IMG/VR virus record: IMGVR_UViG_3300044984_002785
Direction: 5' to 3' (one strand)
Source of the DNA: a virus
Taxonomy: Duplodnaviria > Heunggongvirae > Uroviricota > Caudoviricetes > Demerecviridae
DNA length: 64,000 bases
Shown here: positions 11,406-28,828 of the stretch, one piece after another
How positions within the stretch are numbered: position 1 is the stretch's first letter
How the letters are laid out: every line of letters begins with the position of its first letter
Position numbers and translations under genes: made by a program
Notes under the pieces: generated by a model
The model's input: only the letters and a program-made list of their open reading frames with translations
Told to the model about the DNA's origin: nothing
The model's database searches: none

Positions 11406-11626
11406 AATATACTACTATTTACCACAAAGCAGTAATAGTGCCAGAAGGTACTTCAAATCCTCTATTTGGCCCTGAAACAGCTACTTACGTTGAGTTAGTA
11501 GACGAAGGTGGTGGGCAGTTTATTGAGTTAGTTCAGTATGACCATCTTCACACAGAACAAAAGCTGCGTATTGAGTTCACAGAGTTTGAACACATCTGCG
11601 AAGTAATCGCGACTCTACGCGGCTAA
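11402..11626 (+). CDS. hypothetical protein
   Basis: 74-aa ORF. Confidence 0.4.
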   Translation: MKYTTIYHKAVIVPEGTSNPLFGPETATYVELVDEGGGQFIELVQYDHLHTEQKLRIEFTEFEHICEVIATLRG

Positions 11627-11632
11627 TAACAC

Positions 11633-11708
11633 TCTGGCGTTCGTATAATGGATAATACAGCGATCTTCTAAGTCGTGAATATGGGTTCGATTCCTGTACG
11701 CCGGACCA
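11633..11708 (+). tRNA. tRNA-Arg(TCT)
   Basis: Acceptor CTGGCGT/ACGCCGG, anticodon stem GCGAT/GTCGT, loop CTTCTAA, T-loop TTCGATT, ACCA end; T-stem weak. Confidence 0.5.
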
Positions 11709-11774
11709 TTACAAATATTGACTTGTACTATCAGCCTTATTGATATATAATATAGCCTAATTAGGAGAAATAAT

Positions 11775-12098
11775 ATGTCACAATACACACCAGACCGTTG
11801 GGTCGTCTTAGAACTTATAAGTCCCAAACAAACTATTCGCAAAGTATTTGCTGGATGGTATGGTGGGTACTTAGGCAGCGACAGCTGGAAACTGAATTCA
11901 GGAATCACCGACATTCGTGAACAAGATGACTTGTTTGAGTTTGATGGTTATAGCGGAAGCACGTACTTTTGCCACCGTAATAGCTACGGCATGAGTGGCT
12001 ATATGCACTCAGTGTTGACTAGTTGGCTTAACCAAGCCGAGGCTAGCGGTAATGTTCAAATCAATATAATTGAACTTGAAGATATTGTGGCTTTGTGA
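11775..12098 (+). CDS. hypothetical protein
   Basis: 107-aa ORF preceded by TTGACT -35 (11718-11723) with -10 candidates TGATAT (11741-11746) or TATAAT (11747-11752); spacing ambiguous. Confidence 0.45.
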   Translation: MSQYTPDRWVVLELISPKQTIRKVFAGWYGGYLGSDSWKLNSGITDIREQDDLFEFDGYSGSTYFCHRNSYGMSGYMHSVLTSWLNQAEASGNVQINIIELEDIVAL

Positions 12099-12125
12099 TA
12101 TAATATAGACTGATTTGGAGATATT

Positions 12126-12326
12126 ATGGCAGGCTATTCACGCGATTTTTTAATTGATGCTTTTATGTCACGTTACATTCATTGTCAACTAATTACAGTT
12201 GAGCAGCTTGTACACATGGAACAAATGGCAAACGATCTGTTTGATCGAGTTGGTCGCGATAGCTTCCGTACTTATGCTAGCTTAGATGCTGATGCAATTC
12301 GAGTCTATAAAAACAGTATTGACTGA
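12126..12326 (+). CDS. hypothetical protein
   Basis: 66-aa ORF preceded by TATAAT at 12109-12114 with upstream TG at 12106-12107. Confidence 0.4.
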   Translation: MAGYSRDFLIDAFMSRYIHCQLITVEQLVHMEQMANDLFDRVGRDSFRTYASLDADAIRVYKNSID

Positions 12327-12375
12327 TCGTGGCTATTACTGTATAATTAGTTCTTTAAACAAAGTTCCCAGGGAT

Positions 12376-12770
12376 GGGAGAAGATCAGACCAACTACCCG
12401 AGTAACCCTCTGTGGCGAAATATTGTAGCGGTGGCGTAACAACTGACTGAACTAGGCTGTCGCCTTGACCTAGTTCCCATAATTTAATGCTCAGTCGATA
12501 AATTAATAACGGCTGGTCAGTTCTAGATAAGCTCCAGCGGGGTAGTAAGTTGTTGCAACAGCTTACGTTGAGCATTAAATTATGGGAGAGTAGTACGTGG
12601 CGGAATTCGTTCAACTAAGTGCACTCAATCTGATATTTCTAGACTATAGTTCGGACTCTGTGACCTACAGCAATTGGTACATTCCGGTGAATCTAGACCC
12701 TAAATTCGAACACAGGGAAACATATCAGGAAATTTTAGTTATGGTGGTTCGACTCCACCCTCTCCTACCA
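12376..12770 (+). ncRNA. tRNA-like / tmRNA-like structured RNA candidate (3' T-arm + acceptor + ACCA)
   Basis: 12743-12770 GGTGG-TTCGACT-CCACC + CTCTCCT-A-CCA; candidate 5' partners GGGAGAA (12376) and GGGAGAG (12584); 18-bp long-range helix 12476-12493/12569-12586; TAATAA double stop at 12504-12509; 640-nt ORF-free island. Confidence 0.4.
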
Positions 12771-12925
12771 TATTTAAGCATCCTGGCGTGGCCAGCGGTA
12801 ATAAGACTGTGGCTCCGGTGAATGTCCACCTTATTATGTCGCAGCAACAGGTTGTTTAAATATGGTTGCAGCAGACAGGGGTCTAGAACTCTGAATCGAC
12901 TAGGAATAGGTCAGCGACTACCGGT

Positions 12926-13294
12926 ATGTTCCGACCGGCAACCATAATAAATTTTAGGATAAATATGAATACAAAGCATACCCCAGATCACTGGACAATG
13001 TTCAGTTACAGCAATACTGGTACTGATGTAACTTATAAAATTTTGGCATCTTGGGACGACCTTCAGTTTGAGGGTGGCGTAATTTATCAAATCAGCGAAT
13101 CAATTACTAATATTGAAGAAACTGCTCTTAGCTTTATTGTAACAGATAGTTCTCAGGACGTTTTTACTTGCGAAAAAAGCAAGTATGGTTTCACTGAAAT
13201 TACTACGAATATTTTTAACAATATGGTTCAGGCTGAAAGCCAGATTCATCAATGGATGTTAAACGTACCTTTTACAGATATTCATTCCAGTTAA
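12926..13294 (+). CDS. hypothetical protein
   Basis: 122-aa ORF (alternative start at 12965). Confidence 0.45.
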   Translation: MFRPATIINFRINMNTKHTPDHWTMFSYSNTGTDVTYKILASWDDLQFEGGVIYQISESITNIEETALSFIVTDSSQDVFTCEKSKYGFTEITTNIFNNMVQAESQIHQWMLNVPFTDIHSS

Positions 13295-13312
13295 ACATCA
13301 GATAATATAAAC

Positions 13313-13341
13313 TTGATTTTGTTCTATAATTGTTGTATAAT
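13313..13341 (+). promoter_or_regulatory. sigma70-type promoter TTGATT-N17-TATAAT
   Basis: Exact 17-nt spacer, 22 nt upstream of ATG 13364. Confidence 0.45.
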
Positions 13342-13363
13342 TAATACTTAACACACAATAACT

Positions 13364-14362
13364 ATGCACACATTTAATCAAGAAATTAATAGAGTTGGTT
13401 TTGCCTGCAAGATACAAAAATCTCCTGGCGTAGCTGACCCTAAACTTAATACAAAAGCAACTACAATTACATGGCTAAATAAGCAATCCAAAGATGTAGC
13501 TGTAGCTCGTCTTTGGGACTTAATGCGTCATAATATTGATGCGTTGCGTAATCAAATCGTATGGGTAGGCAGTCGAGACTCTAAGCTAAGAATGTTTCGT
13601 ATTACCAGTGATCTTTTGACTGCCTACACTCACGACGACTGGATGTGGTTTTATTTTGAACCAGACGTTCTGCGTTTTTTAGAAACCAATTTAAGTAAAA
13701 TTGGTGAATTAGCCCGCAGCCTTGATGTGCGTTTATCGTTTCATCCAGGTCAATTCTGCGTTTTAGCGAGTGAACATGATGTTATCGTTGATAGGAGTAT
13801 TCTTGAGTTTGAGTACCATTGTGACCTTATCAGATATATGGGTTATGGTAAGCAATTTCAAGACTTTAAGTGCAATGTACATATCGGAGGTAAACGAGGA
13901 CCTCTTGGGATTCAAACTGCATTAAAAAAGCTGAGTCCAGAAGCTAGAAATTGTTTGACTATTGAAAATGCCGAGTTTACTTGGGGACTAGATGCTAGTC
14001 TGGAGTTAGCCAAAGACTGTGCCTTAGTATTAGATATTCATCATAACTGGATTAATACTGGTGAGTACATTGAGCCTAGTGATTCAAAGTTTCAAAAAGT
14101 TATTGATAGTTGGCGAGGCGTTAGGCCTGTTATACACTATTCCGTATCACGTGAAGATGTGCTAGTAGACCATGATCCTCTAACAAAACCTGACTTTAAA
14201 TTACTTAAATCTACAGGTTATACATCAGCTAAGCTCCGTGCTCACAGTGACTACTACTGGAATCAACCAGTAAATACTTGGGCCTTGACATTTAGTCCTT
14301 ATGCTGATATAATGTGTGAATCAAAAGAAAAAAACTTGGCTGTTGACGATTTTTTAATTTAA
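13364..14362 (+). CDS. UvdE-like / xylose-isomerase-like TIM-barrel endonuclease (tentative)
   Basis: 332 aa; LRMFRITSDLLTAY parallels UvdE IKLFRISSEIFPFA; size fits UV-damage endonuclease / AP-endonuclease family 2. Confidence 0.35.
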   Translation: MHTFNQEINRVGFACKIQKSPGVADPKLNTKATTITWLNKQSKDVAVARLWDLMRHNIDALRNQIVWVGSRDSKLRMFRITSDLLTAYTHDDWMWFYFEPDVLRFLETNLSKIGELARSLDVRLSFHPGQFCVLASEHDVIVDRSILEFEYHCDLIRYMGYGKQFQDFKCNVHIGGKRGPLGIQTALKKLSPEARNCLTIENAEFTWGLDASLELAKDCALVLDIHHNWINTGEYIEPSDSKFQKVIDSWRGVRPVIHYSVSREDVLVDHDPLTKPDFKLLKSTGYTSAKLRAHSDYYWNQPVNTWALTFSPYADIMCESKEKNLAVDDFLI

Positions 14363-14424
14363 TTGTTGCGATTCCGACAACCGCATCGGATAAGATTTGT
14401 TAGTTTGCTTCCCTAAACTAATAT

Positions 14425-14498
14425 CTCGGTGTAGTGAAATGGCATCACTCGTGCTTTGGGAGCATGGAGCGCAAGTTCGATTCTTGCCATCGAGACCA
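14425..14498 (+). tRNA. tRNA-Pro(TGG)
   Basis: Acceptor CTCGGTG/CATCGAG, D-stem GTGA/TCAC, anticodon loop TTTGGGA, T-arm GCAAG-TTCGATT-CTTGC, ACCA. Confidence 0.7.
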
Positions 14499-14687
14499 TT
14501 TTAATTTGTATGTTGCTAGATTCCGGTTCAGTCGCGGAGCTTTATGTACTTGAGACATGATACACCTAGGAAGGTATCGTGGTATGGTATGAGTCTTGGA
14601 ACAGGTCTGTGTCATGAACAGAATAAGCCAAGACCACAGCCTTAGCGGGTTGGGTAGTAAACAGCATACAAACTAAAATGAAATTAT

Positions 14688-14771
14688 GCGTTGGTGGTGG
14701 AATGGTATACACGCTGGTCTTAGAAGCCAGTGCCGAAAGGATTGAGAGTTCGAGTCTCTCTCGACGCACCA
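14688..14771 (+). tRNA. tRNA-Leu(TAG), class II
   Basis: Acceptor GCGTTGG/TCGACGC, anticodon loop CTTAGAA, long variable arm, T-arm GAGAG-TTCGAGT-CTCTC, ACCA. Confidence 0.7.
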
Positions 14772-14776
14772 TATTA

Positions 14777-14852
14777 GGGGAATTAGCTCAGCTGGGAGAG
14801 CGGCTGCTTTGCAAGCAGTAGGTCAACGGTTCGATCCCGTTATTCTCCACCA
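14777..14852 (+). tRNA. tRNA-Ala(TGC)
   Basis: GGGGAAT...TAGCTCAGCTGGGAGAGC D-arm, anticodon loop TTGCAAG, T-arm AACGG-TTCGATC-CCGTT, ACCA. Confidence 0.75.
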
Positions 14853-15110
14853 AATCAAAAAAGGATATTATGAAATATCAGTTTATTAAAGCAAGTTGGT
14901 TTAGTGGTACTCCATTTATTTGGAACGCAGTACAATCAAGCAATAATACACAGGCTAGAATTTTTAGATTCGGCCCTATCTTACTCAGAGTAGAAAAATG
15001 AAAACACCCAAACCTAGGAATCACGTTGTTTTAGCTTTAATGAAGCGAAATGGTAGTGGTTCACATCAAAAAAGCCACAAACAGCTTCGTGGCAAATGGA
15101 AGCGTAGCCT

Positions 15111-15185
15111 GGACGTATAACTTAGCGGCTAAAGTAACTGGCTTTTAACCAGTAAATCAGAGTTCGATTCTCTGTGCGTCCACCA
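15111..15185 (+). tRNA. tRNA-Lys(TTT)
   Basis: Acceptor GGACGTA/TGCGTCC, anticodon stem ACTGG/CCAGT, loop CTTTTAA, T-arm CAGAG-TTCGATT-CTCTG, ACCA. Confidence 0.75.
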
Positions 15186-15304
15186 TATTTGAGCATATTA
15201 ACAGATGGCGTTCAACCACTTGTTTAATCCTTGCAAGGCAACACGTTTACGGGAACAAAGTACAAGTTCCAAAAGTGGATGTTAGTATGCTCAAATATGG
15301 TCAT

Positions 15305-15396
15305 AGCTCTATAGTTTAATGGTAAAACGGCGGATTTATATCCCGTAAGCAACAGATAATTGGTTCATCTGGGTTCGAGTCCCGGTGGAGCTACCA
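15305..15396 (+). tRNA. atypical tRNA, probable anticodon TAT (Ile) with 22-nt extra region
   Basis: Acceptor AGCTCTA/TGGAGCT, D-stem GTTT/AAAC, anticodon loop TTTATAT (U33, A37), T-arm CTGGG-TTCGAGT-CCCGG, ACCA; variable region 22 nt and may pair (CAGAT...ATCTG). Confidence 0.4.
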
Positions 15397-15400
15397 ATAC

Positions 15401-15487
15401 GGAAGATGTGCTGCAAGGTGCGGCAGGAGTTTGCTAAACTCTCGTTCAGAAATGGGCTGACAGGTTCGATTCCTGTATCTTCCGCCA
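15401..15487 (+). tRNA. tRNA-Ser(GCT), class II
   Basis: Acceptor GGAAGAT/ATCTTCC, anticodon GGAGT-TTGCTAA-ACTCT, long variable arm, T-arm ACAGG-TTCGATT-CCTGT, GCCA. Confidence 0.75.
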
Positions 15488-15505
15488 AATAACAAAAGGA
15501 TTATT

Positions 15506-15730
15506 ATGCCTTGTATGAAATGCGCTAATGGTAAGTATAAATATGGTGAACATGGAAAATGTGTTTACGATACTCTAGCTGCGTGCAAACGTGCCGCTGC
15601 AGCAATACATATTCATGAACCAGGCCCACATGGGCCTATTCCTAGTACTGAACCAGCTAAAACAGCGGCAGCAATGTCACCTTGGCACGATTCTAGTTGT
15701 AAATGCTCTAAGTGCTTAAAGAAATCTTAG
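15506..15730 (+). CDS. small Cys-rich protein embedded in tRNA array
   Basis: 74 aa with 8 Cys (CMKC...CKCSKC); RBS-like AAAGGA upstream. Confidence 0.45.
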   Translation: MPCMKCANGKYKYGEHGKCVYDTLAACKRAAAAIHIHEPGPHGPIPSTEPAKTAAAMSPWHDSSCKCSKCLKKS

Positions 15731-15732
15731 GT

Positions 15733-15806
15733 GTGGCTATAGTGTAATGGTTAGCACCCGAGATTGTGATTCTTTTAGTCTGAGTTCGATCCTCAGTAGT
15801 CACCCC
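15733..15806 (+). tRNA. tRNA-His(GTG)
   Basis: Acceptor GTGGCTA/TAGTCAC, D-stem GTGT/GCAC, anticodon loop TTGTGAT, T-arm CTGAG-TTCGATC-CTCAG; no encoded G-1, 3' end CC-T. Confidence 0.6.
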
Positions 15807-16068
15807 TAAGATATTTTTACACTTGAAAAAATTAACCGAATCTAGTATAATTATGAATCAAATACAAGTTTTATTAGATAAAGAAGCAGAATTAGGTAAT
15901 AGACGTTATTACATATTACAACAGATTAAAGCACAGCGGGGTACACAGCCACCGCATTGTTGGGGAATGGACGACTGTTCAACCCTAACGCTTAGTCAGT
16001 GTCCTTGGCGTATAGATTGTGGCGAACATGAGTCACAAGTTTACCAAGAACAATTATCATTATTTTAA

Positions 16069-16144
16069 GCCGCGATAGCTCATCAGGTAGAGCAGCAGAC
16101 TGAAAATCTGTGTGTGGCTGGTTCGAGTCCAGTTCGCGGTACCA
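16069..16144 (+). tRNA. tRNA-Phe(GAA)
   Basis: GCCGCGATAGCTCATCAGGTAGAGCA, anticodon loop CTGAAAA, T-loop TTCGAGT, acceptor 3' TCGCGGT-A-CCA. Confidence 0.75.
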
Positions 16145-16149
16145 AATAC

Positions 16150-16224
16150 GCGCTTGTAGCTCAGAGGAAGAGCATTCGCTTGATAAGCGAAAGGCCGACA
16201 TTTCGAAATTGTCCAAGCGTACCA
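16150..16224 (+). tRNA. tRNA-Ile(GAT)
   Basis: GCGCTTGTAGCTCAGAGGAAGAGCA, anticodon TTCGC-TTGATAA-GCGAA, acceptor 3' CAAGCGT-A-CCA. Confidence 0.7.
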
Positions 16225-16305
16225 GTAACTATCTAGATACTCTAATTCTAGTAACTCTGCGAATCGGGTTAGAATTCGCACAACACACAACACAGGAGAC
16301 TACTA

Positions 16306-16538
16306 TGTCCAACAAATCCCCTTTTGAAATTCGTCTTGAAATCCTCAAGATGACCGCAGAACTTATGAAATCTGAGTATGAATCCAATATGGAATTCATT
16401 ACTGAAATGCAAGAAAATCTAGCTGACAAAGGGTTAAACACCCAGGCTATGATTGAAAAATTTATGCCAAAACCATTTAGTTTTGATGAAATGCTGGCAA
16501 AGTCCAAGCAGTTCTATGAGTTTGTAAATGCTAAGTGA
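16306..16538 (+). CDS. hypothetical protein (77 aa)
   Basis: ORF track 16110-16538 trimmed to first ATG downstream of tRNA-Ile (MSNKSPFEIRLEIL...). Confidence 0.45.
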
Positions 16539-16728
16539 GTTAATGCAGCGTGTACAGGAAGTATTCAAGCCTTACACGATGGACGACTTTATGAATGACG
16601 GTTGCCCACAAGATCATGCAGATGTTCAAAGACTTGAACTTGTCTGGCAGTCTTACCAAAACCGAAAACTTTTCAATACCTGTTACTAAATTTTACGCTC
16701 AAAGGGAAACCTTTGGGCGTTTTGGCCT

Positions 16729-17250
16729 ATGCAACTAAATTATAATGAATATGCAGACAAAATAGATTTAAAATATTCTATTATTCAAGGTTTGCTGGTA
16801 GAAGATGTATCAGGTGTGCTGACTGTGTCTACTGATTTTAAACCAAATACTATTTATTTAAATAAGTATAATAGAACAGCAGCTATCATAGTAGCTGAAA
16901 AAGAATATATAGGAAGACCGTATATTCTTAAAAAGTCGGACTGTATTAAATTAGTCAATGAGTGGCTAGATGACAGACTAAATACCGACTACGTAAAAAG
17001 ATACAAAGAAACTGACAATAGACAGTTTAAAAGATATTACGCCGAAGGTGTAAAGTACGCATATTTAGATAATGGATTTACAGAAGTTGTTGATCAATCT
17101 ATGAATGTAGGAGACGTATTATTATATACTACTAATCTTCATGTTGCAGTGTATGTAGGTAATAATACAATTTTACATCATTTGCCGCGTAAACTATCTT
17201 GTTATGATACTTTAGATAGTGCAAGTATACTAGGAGTATATAGACCATGA
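16729..17250 (+). CDS. NlpC/P60-family peptidase-like protein
   Basis: KKSDCIKLVNEWL (catalytic Cys context) and GDVLLYTTNLHVAVYVGNNTILHH (His context) in NlpC/P60 order. Confidence 0.45.
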   Translation: MQLNYNEYADKIDLKYSIIQGLLVEDVSGVLTVSTDFKPNTIYLNKYNRTAAIIVAEKEYIGRPYILKKSDCIKLVNEWLDDRLNTDYVKRYKETDNRQFKRYYAEGVKYAYLDNGFTEVVDQSMNVGDVLLYTTNLHVAVYVGNNTILHHLPRKLSCYDTLDSASILGVYRP

Positions 17251-25717: not shown

Positions 25718-25721
25718 TTTA

Positions 25722-26318
25722 TTGAAGGAATTTATGACAAAAACAAGTATTCTAGACCCTAAGCTGTTTCAAACAGACAAGTATTCAAATAACTTCACAA
25801 AATCAGTTGCACACATTCATGAATTTTATCTAACTGGTGAAATTGGTGATGCTGAAGAATACATTGAGTGGTTTGATATTATCCGTAATGCCAGTGCAGT
25901 AGACAGTATTCGCATTTACATTAACAGTCCGGGTGGTGATCTTTTTACTACCTTACAGTTTTTACGTGTTATGTCAGATACTGAAGCCACAGTAACTACT
26001 AGTGTTGAAGGCGCTTGTATGAGTGCTGCAACCATGATCTTTTTACATGGTCATACACAAGAAGTAACCCCCCACAGCCTGTTCATGTTTCACGACTATT
26101 CGTCTGGTACATTTGGTAAAGGCGGTGAACAATATGACCAGATTCAGTTTGAGCGTGGTTGGTCTCGTAAGTTTTTAACAGAAGTCTACACAGGTTTCTT
26201 AACTGATGCCGAAATTGAGTCAATGATGCACAACAAAGACATTTGGATGGACTCAGAAGAAGTTGTTAAGCGTTTAACCGTATTACATAAGGCTCGCGAA
26301 GCCGAAGCCAAAGAATAA
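25722..26318 (+). CDS. ClpP-family (S14) serine protease-like protein
   Basis: YINSPGGDLF, GACMSAATMIF (Ser context), SLFMFHDY (His context) in ClpP order; AAGGA RBS 25711; begins 5 nt after the tmRNA locus. Confidence 0.5.
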   Translation: MKEFMTKTSILDPKLFQTDKYSNNFTKSVAHIHEFYLTGEIGDAEEYIEWFDIIRNASAVDSIRIYINSPGGDLFTTLQFLRVMSDTEATVTTSVEGACMSAATMIFLHGHTQEVTPHSLFMFHDYSSGTFGKGGEQYDQIQFERGWSRKFLTEVYTGFLTDAEIESMMHNKDIWMDSEEVVKRLTVLHKAREAEAKE

Positions 26319-26437
26319 ATATCGCGGGGATTCAGGGTATCAGTAAGTCTCATAAGCTCAACTGTGGTCGTTTCGAATACACCCCCCGCAACCAATAACA
26401 CGGCTAAACCCTCTGCGTGAGTACGGTTTAGTTTTCA

Positions 26438-26529
26438 GGAAAGTAATGCAGCGGGGTTGGTCCTGCGACCAGCCTTGAAAACTGGGTTCTCTTAACAGGG
26501 ATGGGGTTCGACTCCTCTGCTTTCCGCCA
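26438..26529 (+). tRNA. tRNA-Ser(TGA), class II
   Basis: Acceptor GGAAAGT/GCTTTCC, anticodon loop CTTGAAA, long variable arm, T-loop TTCGACT, G-CCA. Confidence 0.6.
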
Positions 26530-26596
26530 TAAGTAAGTCTATTGATAACAACGAGCTAATACGCGTTAAAGTGCTTGTAACTTAGTAGGCTTTCTT

Positions 26597-26911
26597 ATGG
26601 CTATTTCATTTTCAAAACTAAAATCACCCTTGCTAGGCATGACTGACAATATACTGGTCGGCAAACTAGCTGGATGCCGCGTATGCGACGTTATTCCCGA
26701 TCACTACGAATATTTGATTTGGGCAGATAAACAAGGTTTGTTAAAATTTCAAGCAATTGTTGTTGAAACTATTGCAGAACACGCTGGATTTAAGTCGCAG
26801 CAGCAATATTACACAGAAGAAGTAGAGCCTTTTATTACTAAAGAGCCTAAATTACGAGAAACCAACGAACCTCCTTATTTAGACGACTACTTTGATGATA
26901 TACCATTTTAA
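26597..26911 (+). CDS. hypothetical protein
   Basis: 104-aa ORF; stop abuts tRNA-Gly. Confidence 0.45.
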   Translation: MAISFSKLKSPLLGMTDNILVGKLAGCRVCDVIPDHYEYLIWADKQGLLKFQAIVVETIAEHAGFKSQQQYYTEEVEPFITKEPKLRETNEPPYLDDYFDDIPF

Positions 26912-26912
26912 T

Positions 26913-26988
26913 GCGTGCTTAGCTCAGTTGGTAGAGCACTTCGTTGCCAACGAAGATGTCGCAGGTTCGAACCCTGTAGCCCGCACCA
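26913..26988 (+). tRNA. tRNA-Gly(GCC)
   Basis: GCGTGCTTAGCTCAGTTGGTAGAGCA, anticodon CTTCG-TTGCCAA-CGAAG, T-arm GCAGG-TTCGAAC-CCTGT, acceptor 3' AGCCCGC-A-CCA. Confidence 0.7.
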
Positions 26989-27021
26989 CTTTTTAACCCG
27001 CGCCAAACATACAAAAACACA

Positions 27022-27228
27022 ATGTATAAAATATACTACTCAGACGAACATGATAACGCTAGTGCGTATAATGTTAGTGAACTAAAGACTGCACTATCGG
27101 CTGTGGAAGCCTTACGTCAGGTAGGGTATAAGTATGTAACCTTGGTTAGTGATTATGCCGACATGGTTGGTAAGCCTGGCGTAAAAGCCGCAGGTACAGA
27201 GTGCATCCCACAAATGTTGAATCCTTAA
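27022..27228 (+). CDS. hypothetical protein
   Basis: 68-aa ORF. Confidence 0.4.
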   Translation: MYKIYYSDEHDNASAYNVSELKTALSAVEALRQVGYKYVTLVSDYADMVGKPGVKAAGTECIPQMLNP

Positions 27229-27236
27229 ATCTACAC

Positions 27237-27265
27237 TTGACCCTAAGCTGAATCTTTGATATAAT
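27237..27265 (+). promoter_or_regulatory. sigma70-type promoter TTGACC-N17-TATAAT
   Basis: Contains the recurrent TTGACCCTAA motif; immediately upstream of ORF 27267. Confidence 0.4.
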
Positions 27266-27266
27266 T

Positions 27267-27497
27267 ATGTCTATGAAACACAAATTCAATATCAAACCAC
27301 TTAGTCCAGAAATGAACACGCCACGAGCCACTACCCGACCACCAAGTCGCGTAACTGCTGGTGGAAGTACGGCTTTAAAAGAGATTCCAGTATATACCGG
27401 TACAGAAATGATCGGTATTTCAATTATTCACAAGAGCTGCTTGCAGCCAGTATTCAGTCGCGAAGCTGCCGTTGATGCAGCTAGTATGCGACGTTAA
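27267..27497 (+). CDS. hypothetical protein
   Basis: 76-aa ORF. Confidence 0.4.
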   Translation: MSMKHKFNIKPLSPEMNTPRATTRPPSRVTAGGSTALKEIPVYTGTEMIGISIIHKSCLQPVFSREAAVDAASMRR

Positions 27498-27500
27498 TTT

Positions 27501-27574
27501 GCAGGGTTGGTATAGTGGCTGTGCTCTAGCCTTCCAAGCTAGTGAGGCGAGTTCGATCCTCGCACCCTGCTCCA
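27501..27574 (+). tRNA. tRNA-Gly(TCC)
   Basis: Acceptor GCAGGGT/ACCCTGC (perfect), anticodon CTAGC-CTTCCAA-GCTAG, T-arm GGCGA-GTTCGATC-CTCGC, T-CCA. Confidence 0.75.
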
Positions 27575-27575
27575 T

Positions 27576-27650
27576 GCATCCTTAGCTCAGAGGTAGAGCG
27601 GCTGCTTTACACGCAGCGGGTCGGCAGTTCGAAACTGTCAGGATGTACCA
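27576..27650 (+). tRNA. tRNA-Val(TAC)
   Basis: GCATCCTTAGCTCAGAGGTAGAGCG, anticodon GCTGC-TTTACAC-GCAGC, T-arm GGCAG-TTCGAAA-CTGTC, acceptor 3' AGGATGT-A-CCA. Confidence 0.75.
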
Positions 27651-27739
27651 AACACAACCGCTAAGGATATGAGTACCTGCGCAGGATCGTCCAGGGGATG
27701 CGGCACTTAGGGTTACCCTTGACCCTAAACTATTTAAAC

Positions 27740-27783
27740 TTGACACAAATCCCCGAATAGAGTATAATAACTACTATTCGGGG
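27740..27783 (+). promoter_or_regulatory. consensus sigma70 promoter TTGACA-N17-TATAAT overlapped by 11-bp palindrome (operator-like)
   Basis: TTGACA 27740-27745, TATAAT 27763-27768; TCCCCGAATAG (27750-27760) and CTATTCGGGGA (27774-27784) flank the -10 element. Confidence 0.55.
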
Positions 27784-27794
27784 ATTATTACATT

Positions 27795-28349
27795 ATGGCA
27801 AACATTTTTTTCGCATCAGACCACCATTTCCATCATAAAAATATTCTTGGTTTTAAGAATAGTGACGATACTCCATTACGAGTATTTGATGATGTTGACC
27901 ACATGAATGAACACATGGTTTACTGCCACAACCGTGTAGTAAAACCCACCGACAAAGTTTATTTTATAGGCGACGTATCTATGAGTCGCAATGCCAAGGG
28001 TCTAGAAATTCTTGGGCGCATGAATGGCGAAAAGGTCTTGATCAAAGGCAATCATGATCTAGCTAACGCTAATCAATATTTACAGTATTTCAAAGATATT
28101 CGTGGTAGTCATCAATTTGATGGAATGATTCTAACACATATTCCAATTCATCCTGAGAGTCTAGCACGTTGGGGATTGAATGTACATGGCCACTTACACA
28201 ATAATACTGTAATGCTTCGTGGGTTTGCAGATAAGCCTGTTGAACCTGACTCTAGGTATTTTAATGTGTCTATGGAAAGAATTAATTTTACTCCTATCTC
28301 CCTAGAGGAAGTTAAAAAGTATGTTAGATTGCCTGATTCTAGGAGATAG
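27795..28349 (+). CDS. metallophosphoesterase / Ser-Thr phosphatase-like protein
   Basis: ASDHHFHH, YFIGDVSMS, IKGNHD phosphoesterase motifs. Confidence 0.5.
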   Translation: MANIFFASDHHFHHKNILGFKNSDDTPLRVFDDVDHMNEHMVYCHNRVVKPTDKVYFIGDVSMSRNAKGLEILGRMNGEKVLIKGNHDLANANQYLQYFKDIRGSHQFDGMILTHIPIHPESLARWGLNVHGHLHNNTVMLRGFADKPVEPDSRYFNVSMERINFTPISLEEVKKYVRLPDSRR

Positions 28350-28716
28350 TATTGCACAAGGTATTGCTCAGCATCGTCCTGAGTGTGCCCTATATGCACG
28401 TCAAGGTATAACCAGCTATAATTGGAATAAAAGGTATCTAGGCTTAGGCCTAGATGCTAAACATACTATTATTAGTCTAGGAAGCAATGACGATTGGTGG
28501 GCTGAAAAGACTTCCAAGGAACTTACAGACATACGCTCAAATTTAAGTGGACATGTAACATGGATTCTTCCTGCTAATAAATCAAATAGTCGAACCGCTG
28601 TACGAGCCGTAGCTAAAACATTTAATGACCTAGTTTTAGAAATACCCGAAACCATACAAGATAAGGTTCATCCTAGTGCACGAGCATACCGTACACTAGC
28701 AAATCAAACGCGCTGA
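28321..28716 (+). CDS. SGNH/GDSL-family hydrolase
   Basis: ILGDSIAQG (block I GDS) and SLGSNDDWW (block III) motifs. Confidence 0.5.
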   Translation: MLDCLILGDSIAQGIAQHRPECALYARQGITSYNWNKRYLGLGLDAKHTIISLGSNDDWWAEKTSKELTDIRSNLSGHVTWILPANKSNSRTAVRAVAKTFNDLVLEIPETIQDKVHPSARAYRTLANQTR

Positions 28717-28784
28717 TAGCTTAATGGTAAAGCGTCCGACTCATAATCGGTTGAGTCTAGGTTCAATTCCTAGTCAGCGCACCA
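28710..28784 (+). tRNA. tRNA with CAT anticodon (Met or lysidine-Ile)
   Basis: Acceptor GCGCTGA/TCAGCGC (perfect), D-arm GCTT-AATGGTA-AAGC, anticodon loop CTCATAA, T-arm CTAGG-TTCAATT-CCTAG, ACCA; overlaps the last codons of the upstream CDS. Confidence 0.65.
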
Positions 28785-28828
28785 CTTATCCCAGCTTAGG
28801 CTGGGATTTTTGTTTCAAAAATATTTTC

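What the first reader, a model, noticed from the sequence alone, without database searches (positions are those of the whole stretch)
12327..12965. Second large tRNA-like / tmRNA-like structured RNA locus in a 640-nt ORF-free island
12743-12770 reads GGTGG-TTCGACT-CCACC + CTCTCCT-A-CCA, a T-arm, acceptor 3' strand, discriminator and CCA. Complementary 5' strands exist at 12584 (GGGAGAG, perfect, giving a 187-nt RNA) and 12376 (GGGAGAA, 6/7, giving a 395-nt tmRNA-sized RNA). The island also holds an 18-bp perfect long-range helix (12476-12493/12569-12586), ATTCGAACACAGGG (12704-12717) resembling the tmRNA 5' GGAUUCGAC-GGG box, an in-frame TAATAA double stop (12504-12509) and further hairpins to 12960. 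Only artefactual overlapping ORFs map here. It could be a second tmRNA-like RNA, a YrlA-type tRNA mimic, or another tRNA-like regulatory RNA; the architecture is unresolved.
Basis: seen in the sequence. Interest (0 to 1): 0.7.

Follow-up and report, generated by a model that had tools for sequence, protein, structure and literature searches.

The report
Self-pairing tRNA-shaped RNA in phage
The gap holds three conserved non-coding RNAs inside a phage's tRNA gene cluster; the central one looks like a tRNA whose anticodon arm is replaced by a domain with two self-complementary loops, so it probably sticks to copies of itself, which no catalogued tRNA mimic is known to do.

Summary
The T arm, acceptor 3' strand, A73 and CCA (12743-12770) pair with GGGAGAG at 12584, giving a 187-nt tRNA-shaped RNA. 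Relatives in uncultured T5-like phages support this: 27 distinct sequences, and on 18 aligned ones 97% of pair cells are paired and 32 of 41 pairs show compensatory changes. The alternative 395-nt closure at 12376 is not supported.

It is not a tmRNA: there is no G3:U70, no conserved tag frame and no Rfam or ARAGORN match. It is not a YrlA: the arm order is not permuted, and YrlA-like RNAs lie upstream of the phage Ro60 gene at about 20230-20565. It does not look like an intron-containing tRNA.

About 110 nt, forming a three-way junction, replace the anticodon arm. Two hexamers in it change between phages but stay palindromic. Site 1 reads GUGCAC, GCGCGC, GUCGAC, UCCGGA, GCCGGC or GCUAGC. Site 2 reads UUCGAA, UUGCAA or GUCGAC. 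I infer RNA-RNA self-association, as in the phage tRNA-island RNAs ROOL and GOLLD.

The island also carries a promoter, two other conserved pseudoknotted RNAs (A and C2) and two spacer hairpins. Biological function is unknown. I class it as a new variant of a known kind.

The parts
12319..12347 (+). Sigma-70-type promoter TTGACT-17 nt-TATAAT overlapping the stop of the upstream 66-aa ORF. The predicted transcription start is about 12354.
   Evidence: Promoter scan gives 11 of 12 matches. The same hexamers and the downstream TAGTTCTTTAAA are conserved in L012.
12366..12476 (+). Module A, a conserved pseudoknotted RNA. Elements: hairpin CCCA/UGGG 12367-12378; helix UCAG 12385-12388 with CUGA 12443-12446; a variable hairpin; GGCG 12433-12436 paired to CGCC 12461-12464 in the loop of hairpin GAACUAGG/CCUAGUUC 12449-12476. 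The 3' core is nearly invariant.
   Evidence: nhmmer hits in L003, L010, L014 (two copies), L035-L038, L025 and L087. On alignment A6, 98.7% of cells are paired and there is one compensatory change each in the UCAG/CUGA helix and in the pseudoknot. It directly follows tRNA-Tyr or tRNA-Glu in L003, L035 and L036.
12476..12586 (+). Spacer hairpin H. It has a perfect 18-bp stem, 12476-12493 with 12569-12586, and a non-conserved interior that includes TAATAA. Its 3' arm overlaps the first GGG of RNA B.
   Evidence: The arm sequence changes but stays complementary in L003. An analogous hairpin precedes B in L012.
12584..12770 (+). RNA B, the tRNA-shaped RNA of 187 nt:
- acceptor 12584-12590 with 12760-12766
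- U8 A9
- D-like arm GUACG 12593-12597 with CGUUC 12608-12612; its loop contains GG
- P2a AACUAA 12613-12618 with UUAGUU 12735-12740
- P2b CUGAUAU 12630-12636 with AUAUCAG 12722-12728
- P3 UCUAGA 12638-12643 with 12692-12697
- P3b hairpin 12663-12678 with conserved loop C-N-GCAA
- P4 CCCU 12698-12701 with AGGG 12714-12717
- T arm 12743-12759
- A73 at 12767 and CCA at 12768-12770
   Evidence: CM R1, built from relatives only, scores this stretch 73 bits, E 9e-15; ordinary tRNAs score 51 bits or less. On A5, 97% of 690 cells are paired, 32 of 41 pairs have compensatory changes, 0 of 500 shuffles reach this, and slid controls pair 28-46%. The L012 homologue passes the Rfam tRNA threshold at 35.6 bits as a tRNA with a 102-nt insertion.
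12619..12624 (+). Self-complementary site 1, GUGCAC, in the internal loop between P2a and P2b of RNA B.
   Evidence: All 27 distinct family sequences carry a perfect 6-nt palindrome at this place, in six versions: UCCGGA 11, GCCGGC 9, GUGCAC 2, GCGCGC 2, GCUAGC 2, GUCGAC 1. All three symmetric pairs covary.
12705..12710 (+).
   Evidence: UUCGAA in most sequences, UUGCAA in L016, L110 and L113, GUCGAC/GACGUC in L010.
12767..12866 (+). Spacer hairpin C1. The 14-bp base ACCAUAUUUAAGCA with UGUUUAAAUAUGGU includes the CCA end of B. The interior is conserved with L016.
   Evidence: The base helix covaries in L012 and L106 (AUUUUAG/CUAAAAU). The same type of hairpin follows tRNA-Lys (15182-15301, 22 bp) and tRNA-Tyr (22279-22407).
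12864..12946 (+). Module C2, a conserved pseudoknotted RNA of about 83 nt:
- closing stem GGUUG 12864-12868 with CAACC 12939-12943
- hairpin CAGGG/CUCUG 12876-12893 whose 8-nt loop holds the palindrome UCUAGA 12882-12887
- hairpin CCGG/CCGG 12921-12938
- pseudoknot GGAAUA 12903-12908 with UGUUCC 12927-12932
   Evidence: Homologues occur after B in L003, L004, L016, L021 and L106. On A7, 92.8% of cells are paired and 8 pairs have compensatory changes. The loop palindrome varies as UCUAGA, UGCGCA and GGUACC, and is imperfect in L021.
12955..12967 (+). Shine-Dalgarno AGGA and the ATG (12965) of the downstream 109-aa ORF. This marks the end of the non-coding island.

Best explanation
The island is a promoter-driven, non-coding stretch of a T5-like phage's tRNA operon. 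It carries three independent structured RNAs (A, B, C2) separated by spacer hairpins.

Shown: the central RNA B (12584-12770) has the top half of a tRNA, namely a 7-bp acceptor stem, a D arm with GG, a canonical T arm UUCGANU, A73 and an encoded CCA. About 110 nt forming a three-way junction (P2b/P3/P4) stand where the anticodon arm would be.

Inferred, step 1: like the neighbouring tRNAs, B is released from the precursor by RNase P at G12584 and by 3' trimming to CCA12770. The flanking long hairpins may act as processing sites.

Inferred, step 2: two orthogonal self-complementary hexamers, one in the P2a/P2b internal loop and one in the P4 apical loop, pair with the same sites on other B molecules. 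The mature RNA would then exist as a dimer or a higher oligomer (chain, ring or cage) that exposes tRNA-like acceptor/T-arm elbows.

B is not a decoder, not a tmRNA and not a Y RNA. Its cellular role is not established. The leading guesses are multivalent bait or scaffold for factors that recognise the tRNA elbow or acceptor end, and a ROOL/GOLLD-type assembly.
For: Structure:
- CM hit of 73 bits with a model built without the window.
- 97% of cells paired and 32 of 41 pairs compensatory across 18 sequences; shuffled and slid controls are far lower.
- The Rfam tRNA model accepts the L012 homologue as a tRNA with a 102-nt insertion.

Operon context:
- Consensus promoter at 12319-12347.
- 24 tRNAs and a tmRNA on the same strand.
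- Conserved position after the 66-aa ORF.
- Modules recur independently, A without B in L014 and L035 and B without A in L012.
- Spacer hairpins of the same type follow ordinary tRNAs.

Self-association:
- The hexamer at site 1 is a perfect palindrome in 27 of 27 distinct sequences, in six versions. Site 2 has three versions.
- On A5 all 105 symmetric cells are paired, 4 of 6 pairs are compensatory, and 0 of 500 shuffles reach this.
- Palindromic hexamers elsewhere in these RNAs run at 1.9%, against 1.6% expected.
- The two sites differ from each other in nearly every sequence, so each is homotypic.
- No second intramolecular copy that covaries was seen.

Precedent: the phage tRNA-island RNAs ROOL and GOLLD form RNA-only cages through kissing loops (PMC12286853), and manA forms a 60-mer.
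Against: - There are no expression, end-mapping or biochemical data. Transcription and processing are inferred.
- A 6-nt palindrome could instead be bound by a dimeric protein.
- Site 2 (UUCGAA/UUGCAA) keeps U1 and A5 and so could be a T-loop motif.
- Most palindrome variants come from a few lineages, so independent events are few: about 4-5 at site 1 and 2 at site 2.
- In the window the CM prefers pairing GUAC (12593-12596) with GUGC (12619-12622) as the D stem, which would bury half of site 1. That model breaks a pair in L010 and is contradicted by L231, which has a canonical D arm followed by CUAA-GCGCGC.
- P2a is weak (A-U, 3-4 bp) in the main subfamily.
- The island is absent from the two closest relatives by UvdE identity, L001 and L002, so it is dispensable.
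Confidence: 0.6

Rival explanations
1. B is a monomeric tRNA mimic or decoy. It uses its tRNA-like elbow and acceptor end to occupy a host or phage tRNA-binding factor, such as an anticodon nuclease or another tRNA-targeting defence, RNase P, the CCA-adding enzyme or a synthetase. The palindromes are protein-binding or tertiary-structure motifs, with site 2 as a T-loop, not RNA-RNA contacts.
For: Canonical T loop, D-loop GG, A73 and CCA are conserved. Site 2 keeps the U1/A5 of a T-loop in both UUCGAA and UUGCAA. From established knowledge: T5-like phages use their tRNA sets against tRNA-cleaving defences.
Against: L010 has GUCGAC/GACGUC at site 2, which is not a T-loop sequence. Site 1 changes sequence six ways while staying exactly self-complementary. 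That is expected for base pairing and unexpected for a sequence-specific protein site.
Confidence: 0.22
2. B is a Y RNA or a second partner or substrate of the phage-encoded Ro60 protein (20581-21891), as the reader's YrlA suggestion implies.
For: The window encodes a TROVE plus Ro60-vWA protein. B lies 3.5-8 kb upstream on the same strand in at least 10 Ro60-bearing relatives. Bacterial Y RNAs mimic tRNA (PMC4201824).
Against: - B has the tRNA strand order, not the permuted T, closed stem, D order.
- No GNCGAAN0-1G motif, apart from one chance match in L091.
- RNAs with the YrlA architecture sit directly upstream of Ro60 in the window and relatives.
- Ro60 occurs without B in L121, L122, L124 and L125. 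B occurs with no Ro60 within 10 kb downstream in L097.
Confidence: 0.06
3. B is a real decoding tRNA with a large intron or expansion that is removed or tolerated, for example supplying the tRNA-Glu that the window lacks.
For: The Rfam tRNA model accepts the L012 homologue. The window has no tRNA-Glu while relatives do. The conserved loop C-N-GCAA contains a GCA triplet followed by A.
Against: - No helix-loop with U33 and a 7-nt anticodon loop remains after removing the insert.
- The insert of 100-120 nt is too small for a group I intron, and no intron family matched at E up to 10.
- The insert is itself the most conserved and covarying part of the RNA.
- B coexists with tRNA-Glu in L016, L018 and L024 and with tRNA-Cys(GCA) in the window.
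Confidence: 0.05
4. B is a second tmRNA-like ribosome-rescue RNA.
For: Acceptor stem, T arm and ACCA end with a long helix replacing the anticodon stem, as in a tmRNA tRNA-like domain. The phage carries a tmRNA elsewhere.
Against: - 3:70 is G:C or A:U, never G:U.
- Frames opened at the conserved GCA give unrelated peptides, or no stop at all.
- ARAGORN and the Rfam tmRNA models give nothing here, even at E up to 10.
- The size is 165-190 nt.
Confidence: 0.03
5. The island is only an untranslated leader or processing region for the downstream genes, and the hairpins are incidental.
For: The promoter is upstream and there is no terminator before the next ORF. C2 ends 9 nt before the Shine-Dalgarno sequence.
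Against: Modules A, B and C2 recur in other genomes next to different neighbours. C2 is followed by a tRNA in L004 and by a promoter-like region in L016 and L106. A follows tRNAs in several loci. Covariation is extensive.
Confidence: 0.04

Closest known systems
ROOL and GOLLD RNAs (and manA): phage or prophage RNAs near tRNA islands that self-assemble
   Same: They are encoded in phage tRNA islands. They are highly structured with pseudoknots and have no known protein partner. Covarying intermolecular kissing loops build RNA-only homo-oligomers (PMC12286853; bioRxiv 10.64898/2026.07.01.735769). GOLLD sometimes carries a tRNA in its linker.
   Different: No Rfam match to any of them, even at E up to 10. 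B is 165-190 nt, against about 580-800 nt for ROOL and GOLLD. B's body is itself a tRNA-like fold with a CCA end. Oligomerisation here is inferred from palindromes, not observed.
tmRNA tRNA-like domain
   Same: Acceptor stem, T arm and ACCA 3' end, with the anticodon stem replaced by a long helix leading to a further domain. Probably an RNase P substrate.
   Different: No G3:U70, no tag reading frame and no tmRNA pseudoknots. B has a full D arm. The genuine permuted tmRNA is at 25262-25703.
YrlA-type bacterial or phage Y RNAs (Ro60 partners)
   Same: A non-coding tRNA mimic with conserved T and D arms in a genome that encodes Ro60.
   Different: In YrlA the arms are permuted (T arm, closed acceptor-like hairpin, D arm) inside a Ro-binding terminal stem, and the 3' end is not CCA (PMC4201824). 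B has tRNA order and an open acceptor stem. Separate YrlA-like RNAs lie next to Ro60.
Phage T4 RNAC and RNAD (species 1 and 2 stable RNAs)
   Same: Small stable RNAs encoded within a phage tRNA gene cluster, co-expressed with the tRNAs, with function still unknown (PMC9697503; tRNA-cluster location from my own knowledge).
   Different: No sequence relationship was tested or seen. T4 is an unrelated phage lineage. No self-complementary loops are known for them.
Retroviral dimerisation initiation site (HIV-1 DIS) and phi29 pRNA
   Same: A 6-nt self-complementary loop mediates RNA-RNA kissing; HIV-1 DIS uses GCGCGC or GUGCAC, the same hexamers as in the window's subfamily. In pRNA, covarying intermolecular loop pairing builds rings. 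Both points are from my own knowledge.
   Different: The resemblance is mechanistic only. The RNAs, contexts and functions are unrelated.

Membership tests
tRNA (Rfam RF00005 / ARAGORN) | Cloverleaf with acceptor, D and T arms detected by the family model | tested here: inconclusive
   The window copy is not called by ARAGORN or by Rfam, even at E up to 10. The L012 homologue scores 35.6 bits against a threshold of 29, but only by treating 102 nt as an insertion. Acceptor, D and T helices covary.
tRNA (Rfam RF00005 / ARAGORN) | 5-bp anticodon stem with a 7-nt loop, U33 and an anticodon | tested here: not met
   The position is occupied by P2a, an internal loop, P2b and a three-way junction. 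The only conserved loop, C-N-GCAA, lacks U33.
tmRNA | tRNA-like domain ending in ACCA | tested here: met
   A73 and CCA in all 20 sequences checked. One further metagenomic copy, L196, reads CUA.
tmRNA | G3:U70 alanine identity pair | tested here: not met
   3:70 is G:C in 9 and A:U in 9 of 18 aligned sequences, never G:U.
tmRNA | Conserved tag reading frame with resume codon and stop | tested here: not met
   Frames from the conserved GCA give unrelated peptides (AIGTFR*, ASTKVTVG*, ATA*) or no stop. ARAGORN finds no tmRNA here.
tmRNA | Match to the tmRNA covariance models | tested here: not met
   No tmRNA family hit in 12200-13100 at E up to 10. The same search finds the real tmRNA at 25262-25680.
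YrlA / bacterial Y RNA | Permuted tRNA-like domain: T arm, then a closed acceptor-like stem-loop, then the D arm | tested here: not met
   The order in B is acceptor 5' strand, D arm, insert, T arm, acceptor 3' strand. The definition is from PMC4201824.
YrlA / bacterial Y RNA | GNCGAAN0-1G motif near the 5' end (putative Ro60 site) | tested here: not met
   Regex search is negative in 19 of 20 family sequences, including the window.
YrlA / bacterial Y RNA | Encoded within about 4 kb of the Ro60 gene on the same strand | tested here: inconclusive
   Same strand, 8 kb upstream in the window and 3.5-6 kb in relatives. B and Ro60 also occur without each other. The slot next to Ro60 is filled by other RNAs.
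YrlA / bacterial Y RNA | Binding to Ro60/Rsr | not testable with these tools
   Needs immunoprecipitation.
ROOL / GOLLD / manA | Match to the family covariance model | tested here: not met
   No hit at the gathering threshold in the window or 12 related loci, or at E up to 10 in the island.
ROOL / GOLLD / manA | Location in phage tRNA islands | tested here: met
   PMC12286853.
ROOL / GOLLD / manA | RNA-only homo-oligomer held by covarying intermolecular kissing loops | tested here: inconclusive
   Two covarying self-complementary loops are present. Assembly itself is not testable with these tools.
Group I intron in a tRNA gene | Intron core of at least ~200 nt matching intron models and inserted in the anticodon loop | tested here: not met
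   The insert is 100-120 nt, no intron family matched at E up to 10, and no anticodon loop remains.

The most novel reading that the evidence does not exclude
RNA B is the monomer of a previously unseen class: a tRNA-bodied RNA that self-assembles through two orthogonal homotypic kissing contacts into a ring, cage or filament. The assembly would display many CCA-ended tRNA elbows. C2, and perhaps A, would be further small self-associating RNAs of the same phage tRNA array. That would extend the ROOL/GOLLD/manA principle of RNA-only quaternary structure in phage tRNA islands to sub-200-nt RNAs that are physically fused to a tRNA fold. It would also hint that these assemblies act on, or imitate, the tRNA pool.
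Probability: 0.3. Interest if true: 0.85.

Novelty: new variant of a known kind. Interest (0 to 1): 0.7.

Why it matters
Phage tRNA islands are known to host enigmatic structured RNAs. T4 RNAC and RNAD are still unexplained, and ROOL and GOLLD were only recently shown to be RNA-only cages.

This locus adds a compact (~170-190 nt), well-covarying family that joins a bona fide tRNA top half to a domain with two self-complementary loops. If the predicted self-association is real, it gives a small, tractable system for asking why phages build RNA assemblies next to their tRNAs. It would also be a natural example of multivalent tRNA mimicry. Possible relevance: tRNA-targeting defence and counter-defence, RNase P or CCA-enzyme recognition, and RNA nanostructure design.

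It also shows that tRNA and tmRNA finders and Rfam miss a recurrent class of tRNA-like genes in uncultured T5-like phages. The same genome carries Ro60 with YrlA-like RNAs and a tmRNA followed by a ClpP-like gene, so it is a rich RNA-biology toolkit.

Tried and rejected
1. Rfam at gathering thresholds (window and 12 relatives) and at E up to 10 (island). Only chance-level miRNA/snoRNA-type hits appeared. There was no tmRNA, Y RNA, intron, ribozyme, riboswitch, ROOL or GOLLD match.
2. ARAGORN on the window and 20 relatives gave no call at any B site.
3. blastn of the island and of the L007 homologue against 50,697 cultured phage records found no match. Cultured relatives are only distant: PolA is 49% identical to the Vibrio phage pVp-1 group, and the best Ro60 match is 54%, to Ralstonia phage RsoM2USA.
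4. The 395-nt closure at 12376 was rejected for lack of covariation.
5. I tested whether module A ends in CCA as a minihelix or TLS-like element. Rejected: CCCA becomes CCUA or CUCA in relatives.
6. attP-type partial tRNA copy. Rejected because the 5' strand covaries with the 3' strand, and no family member was found in the representative genomes of 185,579 species.
7. A tRNA-Glu replacement. Rejected because B coexists with tRNA-Glu.
8. An obligatory Ro60 partnership. Not supported.
9. The first MAFFT alignments of the central domain were poor, and one wrong minus-strand coordinate for L091 spoiled A2. I replaced them with a CM-based alignment.
10. Literature searches for a described tRNA-like self-pairing phage RNA found none. 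The unnamed candidates of Fremin et al. 2023 (PMC10690425) could include these motifs, and I could not check that.
Full report
CONTEXT. The window comes from an uncultured large phage. ARAGORN finds 24 tRNAs and a permuted tmRNA, all on the + strand between 11.6 and 28.8 kb, and Rfam agrees. The family-A DNA polymerase is closest, at 49% identity, to T5-like Vibrio phages of 110-130 kb. Related IMG/VR contigs are about 100 kb. The tmRNA matches the betaproteobacterial model, so a betaproteobacterial host is a reasonable inference. The finding lies between a 66-aa ORF ending at 12326 and a 109-aa ORF starting at 12965.

OBSERVATION. Neither ARAGORN nor Rfam, at gathering thresholds or at E up to 10, reports anything in 12200-13100 beyond four chance-level hits with E of 2.9-6.5. 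There is no blastn match in 50,697 cultured phage records. A near-consensus promoter, TTGACT-17-TATAAT, sits at 12319-12347 and is conserved in L012. The + strand folds better than shuffles (z -2.5) and better than the - strand. The 187-nt segment alone is unremarkable by energy (z -1.05). The case therefore rests on comparison with relatives.

RELATIVES AND MODULARITY.
- Using the neighbouring UvdE-like gene (Pfam E 1e-34) I fetched 80 related loci.
- nhmmer shows the island is a mosaic of separately conserved blocks: A (about 12366-12476), B (12584-12770) and C2 (12864-12946).
- B with or without the others sits downstream of the 66-aa ORF homologue in 15 of the 80 loci.
- A occurs without B (L014 with two copies, L035-L038). 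In L003, L035 and L036 it follows directly on tRNA-Tyr or tRNA-Glu.
- The two closest relatives by UvdE identity, L001 and L002, have no island at all.
The arm sequence of H differs between relatives but stays complementary.
- Hairpins of the C1 kind, whose base is ACCA-UAUUU... paired with ...AAAUA-UGGU, also follow tRNA-Lys (15182-15301, 22 bp) and tRNA-Tyr in this window, and tRNA-Lys in L016 and L003. I treat H and C1 as generic spacer and processing hairpins of the array. That is an inference.

RNA B IS A tRNA-SHAPED RNA.
- A pattern search for T arm, acceptor 3' strand, N and CCA with a complementary 5' strand 125-260 nt upstream recovered one such element per locus. Acceptor stems vary: GGGAGAG, GGGUCGG, AGGCCGG, GGAUCGG, GGGACGG and GGGCCGG, each with its matching 3' strand.
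- In most relatives the D arm is canonical (GCUU-AACAUGGUUA-AAGC). The L012 copy passes the Rfam tRNA threshold at 35.6 bits as a tRNA with a 102-nt insertion.
- I built a covariance model from seven relatives without the window. It scores family members at 95-207 bits, the window stretch 12584-12770 at 73 bits (E 9e-15), L010 at 45 bits, and ordinary tRNAs at 51 bits or less.
- On the CM alignment of 18 sequences, 97.0% of 690 pair cells are standard pairs and 32 of 41 pairs show changes on both sides. No shuffle out of 500 reaches this, and slid controls pair only 28-46%.
- All eight helices are supported: acceptor, D, P2b, P3, P3a, P3b, P4 and T.
- The alternative 5' strand at 12376 lies inside module A and does not follow the acceptor's changes.
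- A metagenome scan added ten more loci with members, giving six further distinct sequences. A scan of one genome for each of 185,579 species gave 90 pattern matches, none of them a family member. The family seems confined to phage and metagenome DNA.

WHAT REPLACES THE ANTICODON ARM. After the D arm come, in order:
- a short helix P2a (AACUAA/UUAGUU in the window, covarying to AACCAA/UUGGUU in L010);
- an internal loop;
- a 7-9-bp helix P2b;
- a three-way junction.
One arm of the junction (P3, P3a, P3b) ends in a hairpin with the conserved loop C-N-GCAA. The other arm (P4) is a 2-4-bp stem capped by a 12-15-nt loop. No 7-nt loop with U33 exists.

TWO SELF-COMPLEMENTARY SITES.
- Site 1. The hexamer in the P2a/P2b internal loop is a perfect Watson-Crick palindrome in all 27 distinct sequences, in six versions: UCCGGA (11), GCCGGC (9), GUGCAC (window and L010), GCGCGC (L231, L168), GCUAGC (L015, L156) and GUCGAC (L003).
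- Site 2. The centre of the P4 loop is also palindromic: UUCGAA in most, including window 12705-12710; UUGCAA in L016, L110 and L113; GUCGAC/GACGUC in L010.
- Treated as symmetric pairs on A5, 105 of 105 cells pair, 4 of 6 pairs show double changes, and 0 of 500 shuffles match.
- Elsewhere in these RNAs palindromic hexamers occur at 1.9%, against 1.6% expected.
- A 6-nt palindrome cannot fold on itself, and no covarying second copy exists in the same molecule.
- The simplest reading is intermolecular pairing of like sites, giving dimers or, with two orthogonal homotypic sites, chains, rings or cages.

Caveats on this reading:
- Independent events are few.
- Site 2 could be a T-loop.
- A dimeric protein could read a palindrome.
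- In the window the CM aligns GUAC/GUGC as the D stem, overlapping site 1. L231 contradicts that, because it has a canonical D arm followed by CUAA-GCGCGC-UCAAU. L010 also argues against it, since that pairing breaks there while my D hairpin and P2a each show a compensatory change.

MODULES A AND C2.
- A has an almost invariant core of about 50 nt with a pseudoknot, GGCG with CGCC. This changes to GGCA with UGCC in L010. The helix UCAG/CUGA changes to UCAA/UUGA in L014. On A6, 98.7% of cells are paired, but only two pairs covary.
- C2 is a closed multi-hairpin RNA of about 83 nt. It has a pseudoknot (GGAAUA/UGUUCC, covarying to GCAAUA/UGUUGC) and a hairpin whose 8-nt loop again carries a variable palindrome: UCUAGA, UGCGCA or GGUACC. 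On A7, 92.8% of cells are paired and 8 pairs are compensatory.
- Neither module matches Rfam.

NOT tmRNA, NOT YrlA, NOT AN INTRON-tRNA.
- tmRNA. 3:70 is never G:U. Frames from the conserved GCA are not conserved. There is no model hit.
- YrlA. By definition it has the T arm, a closed acceptor-like hairpin and the D arm in that order, plus a GNCGAA motif, near Ro60 (PMC4201824). B has neither feature.
- The window does encode a Ro60 orthologue: TROVE and Ro60-vWA domains at 20581-21891. The 350 nt upstream of it align across relatives into RNAs with exactly the YrlA order. In L116 these are GGUGG-UUCGAGU-CCACC, then a closed hairpin, then GCUC-AGUUGGUA-GAGC, closed by GAAACAG/CUGUUUC.
- B and Ro60 also occur without each other.
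- Intron-tRNA. The insert is too small for a group I intron and is itself the most constrained part of the RNA.

COMPARISON WITH KNOWN SYSTEMS.
- By kind, B resembles tRNA mimics (the tmRNA tRNA-like domain, YrlA) and the enigmatic RNAs of phage tRNA clusters. T4 RNAC and RNAD are still of unknown function (PMC9697503).
- By predicted behaviour, B resembles ROOL, GOLLD and manA. These are phage RNAs near tRNA islands that form RNA-only oligomers through covarying kissing loops (PMC12286853).
- B fails the membership tests of all of these families. I found no description of it in the searchable literature. I could not examine the anonymous candidates from the IMG/VR-wide screen (PMC10690425).

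VERDICT. It is a promoter-driven cassette of three conserved non-coding RNAs. The centre is a new tRNA-shaped RNA family predicted to self-associate. My confidences:
- 0.9 that B is a genuine tRNA-like structured RNA family;
- about 0.55 that it self-associates through the palindromes;
- low for any specific cellular role.
Novelty: new variant of a known kind. Interest: 0.7.

Noticed in passing
window 20581-21891 (+) and 20230-20565 (+): The phage encodes a Ro60/Rsr orthologue (Pfam TROVE 2.8e-8, vWA_Ro60 3.3e-7). It is directly preceded by one or two conserved RNAs with the YrlA arm order: T arm, closed hairpin, D arm, closed by GAAACAG/CUGUUUC. The window's own copy is degenerate, with a T arm of only about 3 bp. 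Own promoters (TTGTATAAT) lie at about 20125 and 20210.
   Followed up: partly
window 25262-25703 and 25722-26318: The permuted (betaproteobacterial-type) tmRNA with tag ANDQTYALAA is followed immediately by a ClpP-like protease gene (Pfam CLP_protease 4.8e-12). This suggests a phage-borne tagging and degradation pair.
   Followed up: no
window 15182-15301 and 22279-22407; L016 10555-10640: Long spacer hairpins between ordinary tRNAs have a base that pairs the upstream tRNA's ACCA-UAUUU with a downstream AAAUA-UGGU (22 bp after tRNA-Lys). They sequester the CCA end in the precursor and may be RNase III-type processing sites.
   Followed up: partly
window 15305-15396; L004 11922-12021; L039 7617-7717: An unusually long (92-nt) tRNA-Ile(UAU). 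At the same array position in two relatives ARAGORN-nt tRNAs with a four-base anticodon (tacc).
   Followed up: no
window 11600-28800: The window's 24 tRNAs include no tRNA-Glu. Relatives carry tRNA-Glu(UUC) between tRNA-Phe and tRNA-Ile(GAU) (e.g. L001 8487-8561). In the window those two tRNAs are only 5 nt apart.
   Followed up: no
L001 4994-5517; L002 5333-5619: The two closest relatives by UvdE identity (87% and 84%) lack the whole RNA island. There the 66-aa ORF abuts the next ORF or tRNA-Leu, so the island behaves as an accessory cassette.
   Followed up: partly
L014 8261-8415 and 8467-8572: Module A is tandemly duplicated in one relative. Its ~50-nt 3' core is invariant across phages whose neighbouring 66-aa ORF product is only about 50% identical to the window's, which suggests a constraint stronger than secondary structure, such as catalysis or ligand or protein binding.
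   Followed up: partly
window 11775-12098 and 12965-13294: The ORFs on either side of the p66-plus-island unit both begin M..(Y/H)TPD(R/H)W and are of similar size (107 and 109 aa). They may be distant paralogues. Neither has a Pfam or PHROG match.
   Followed up: no
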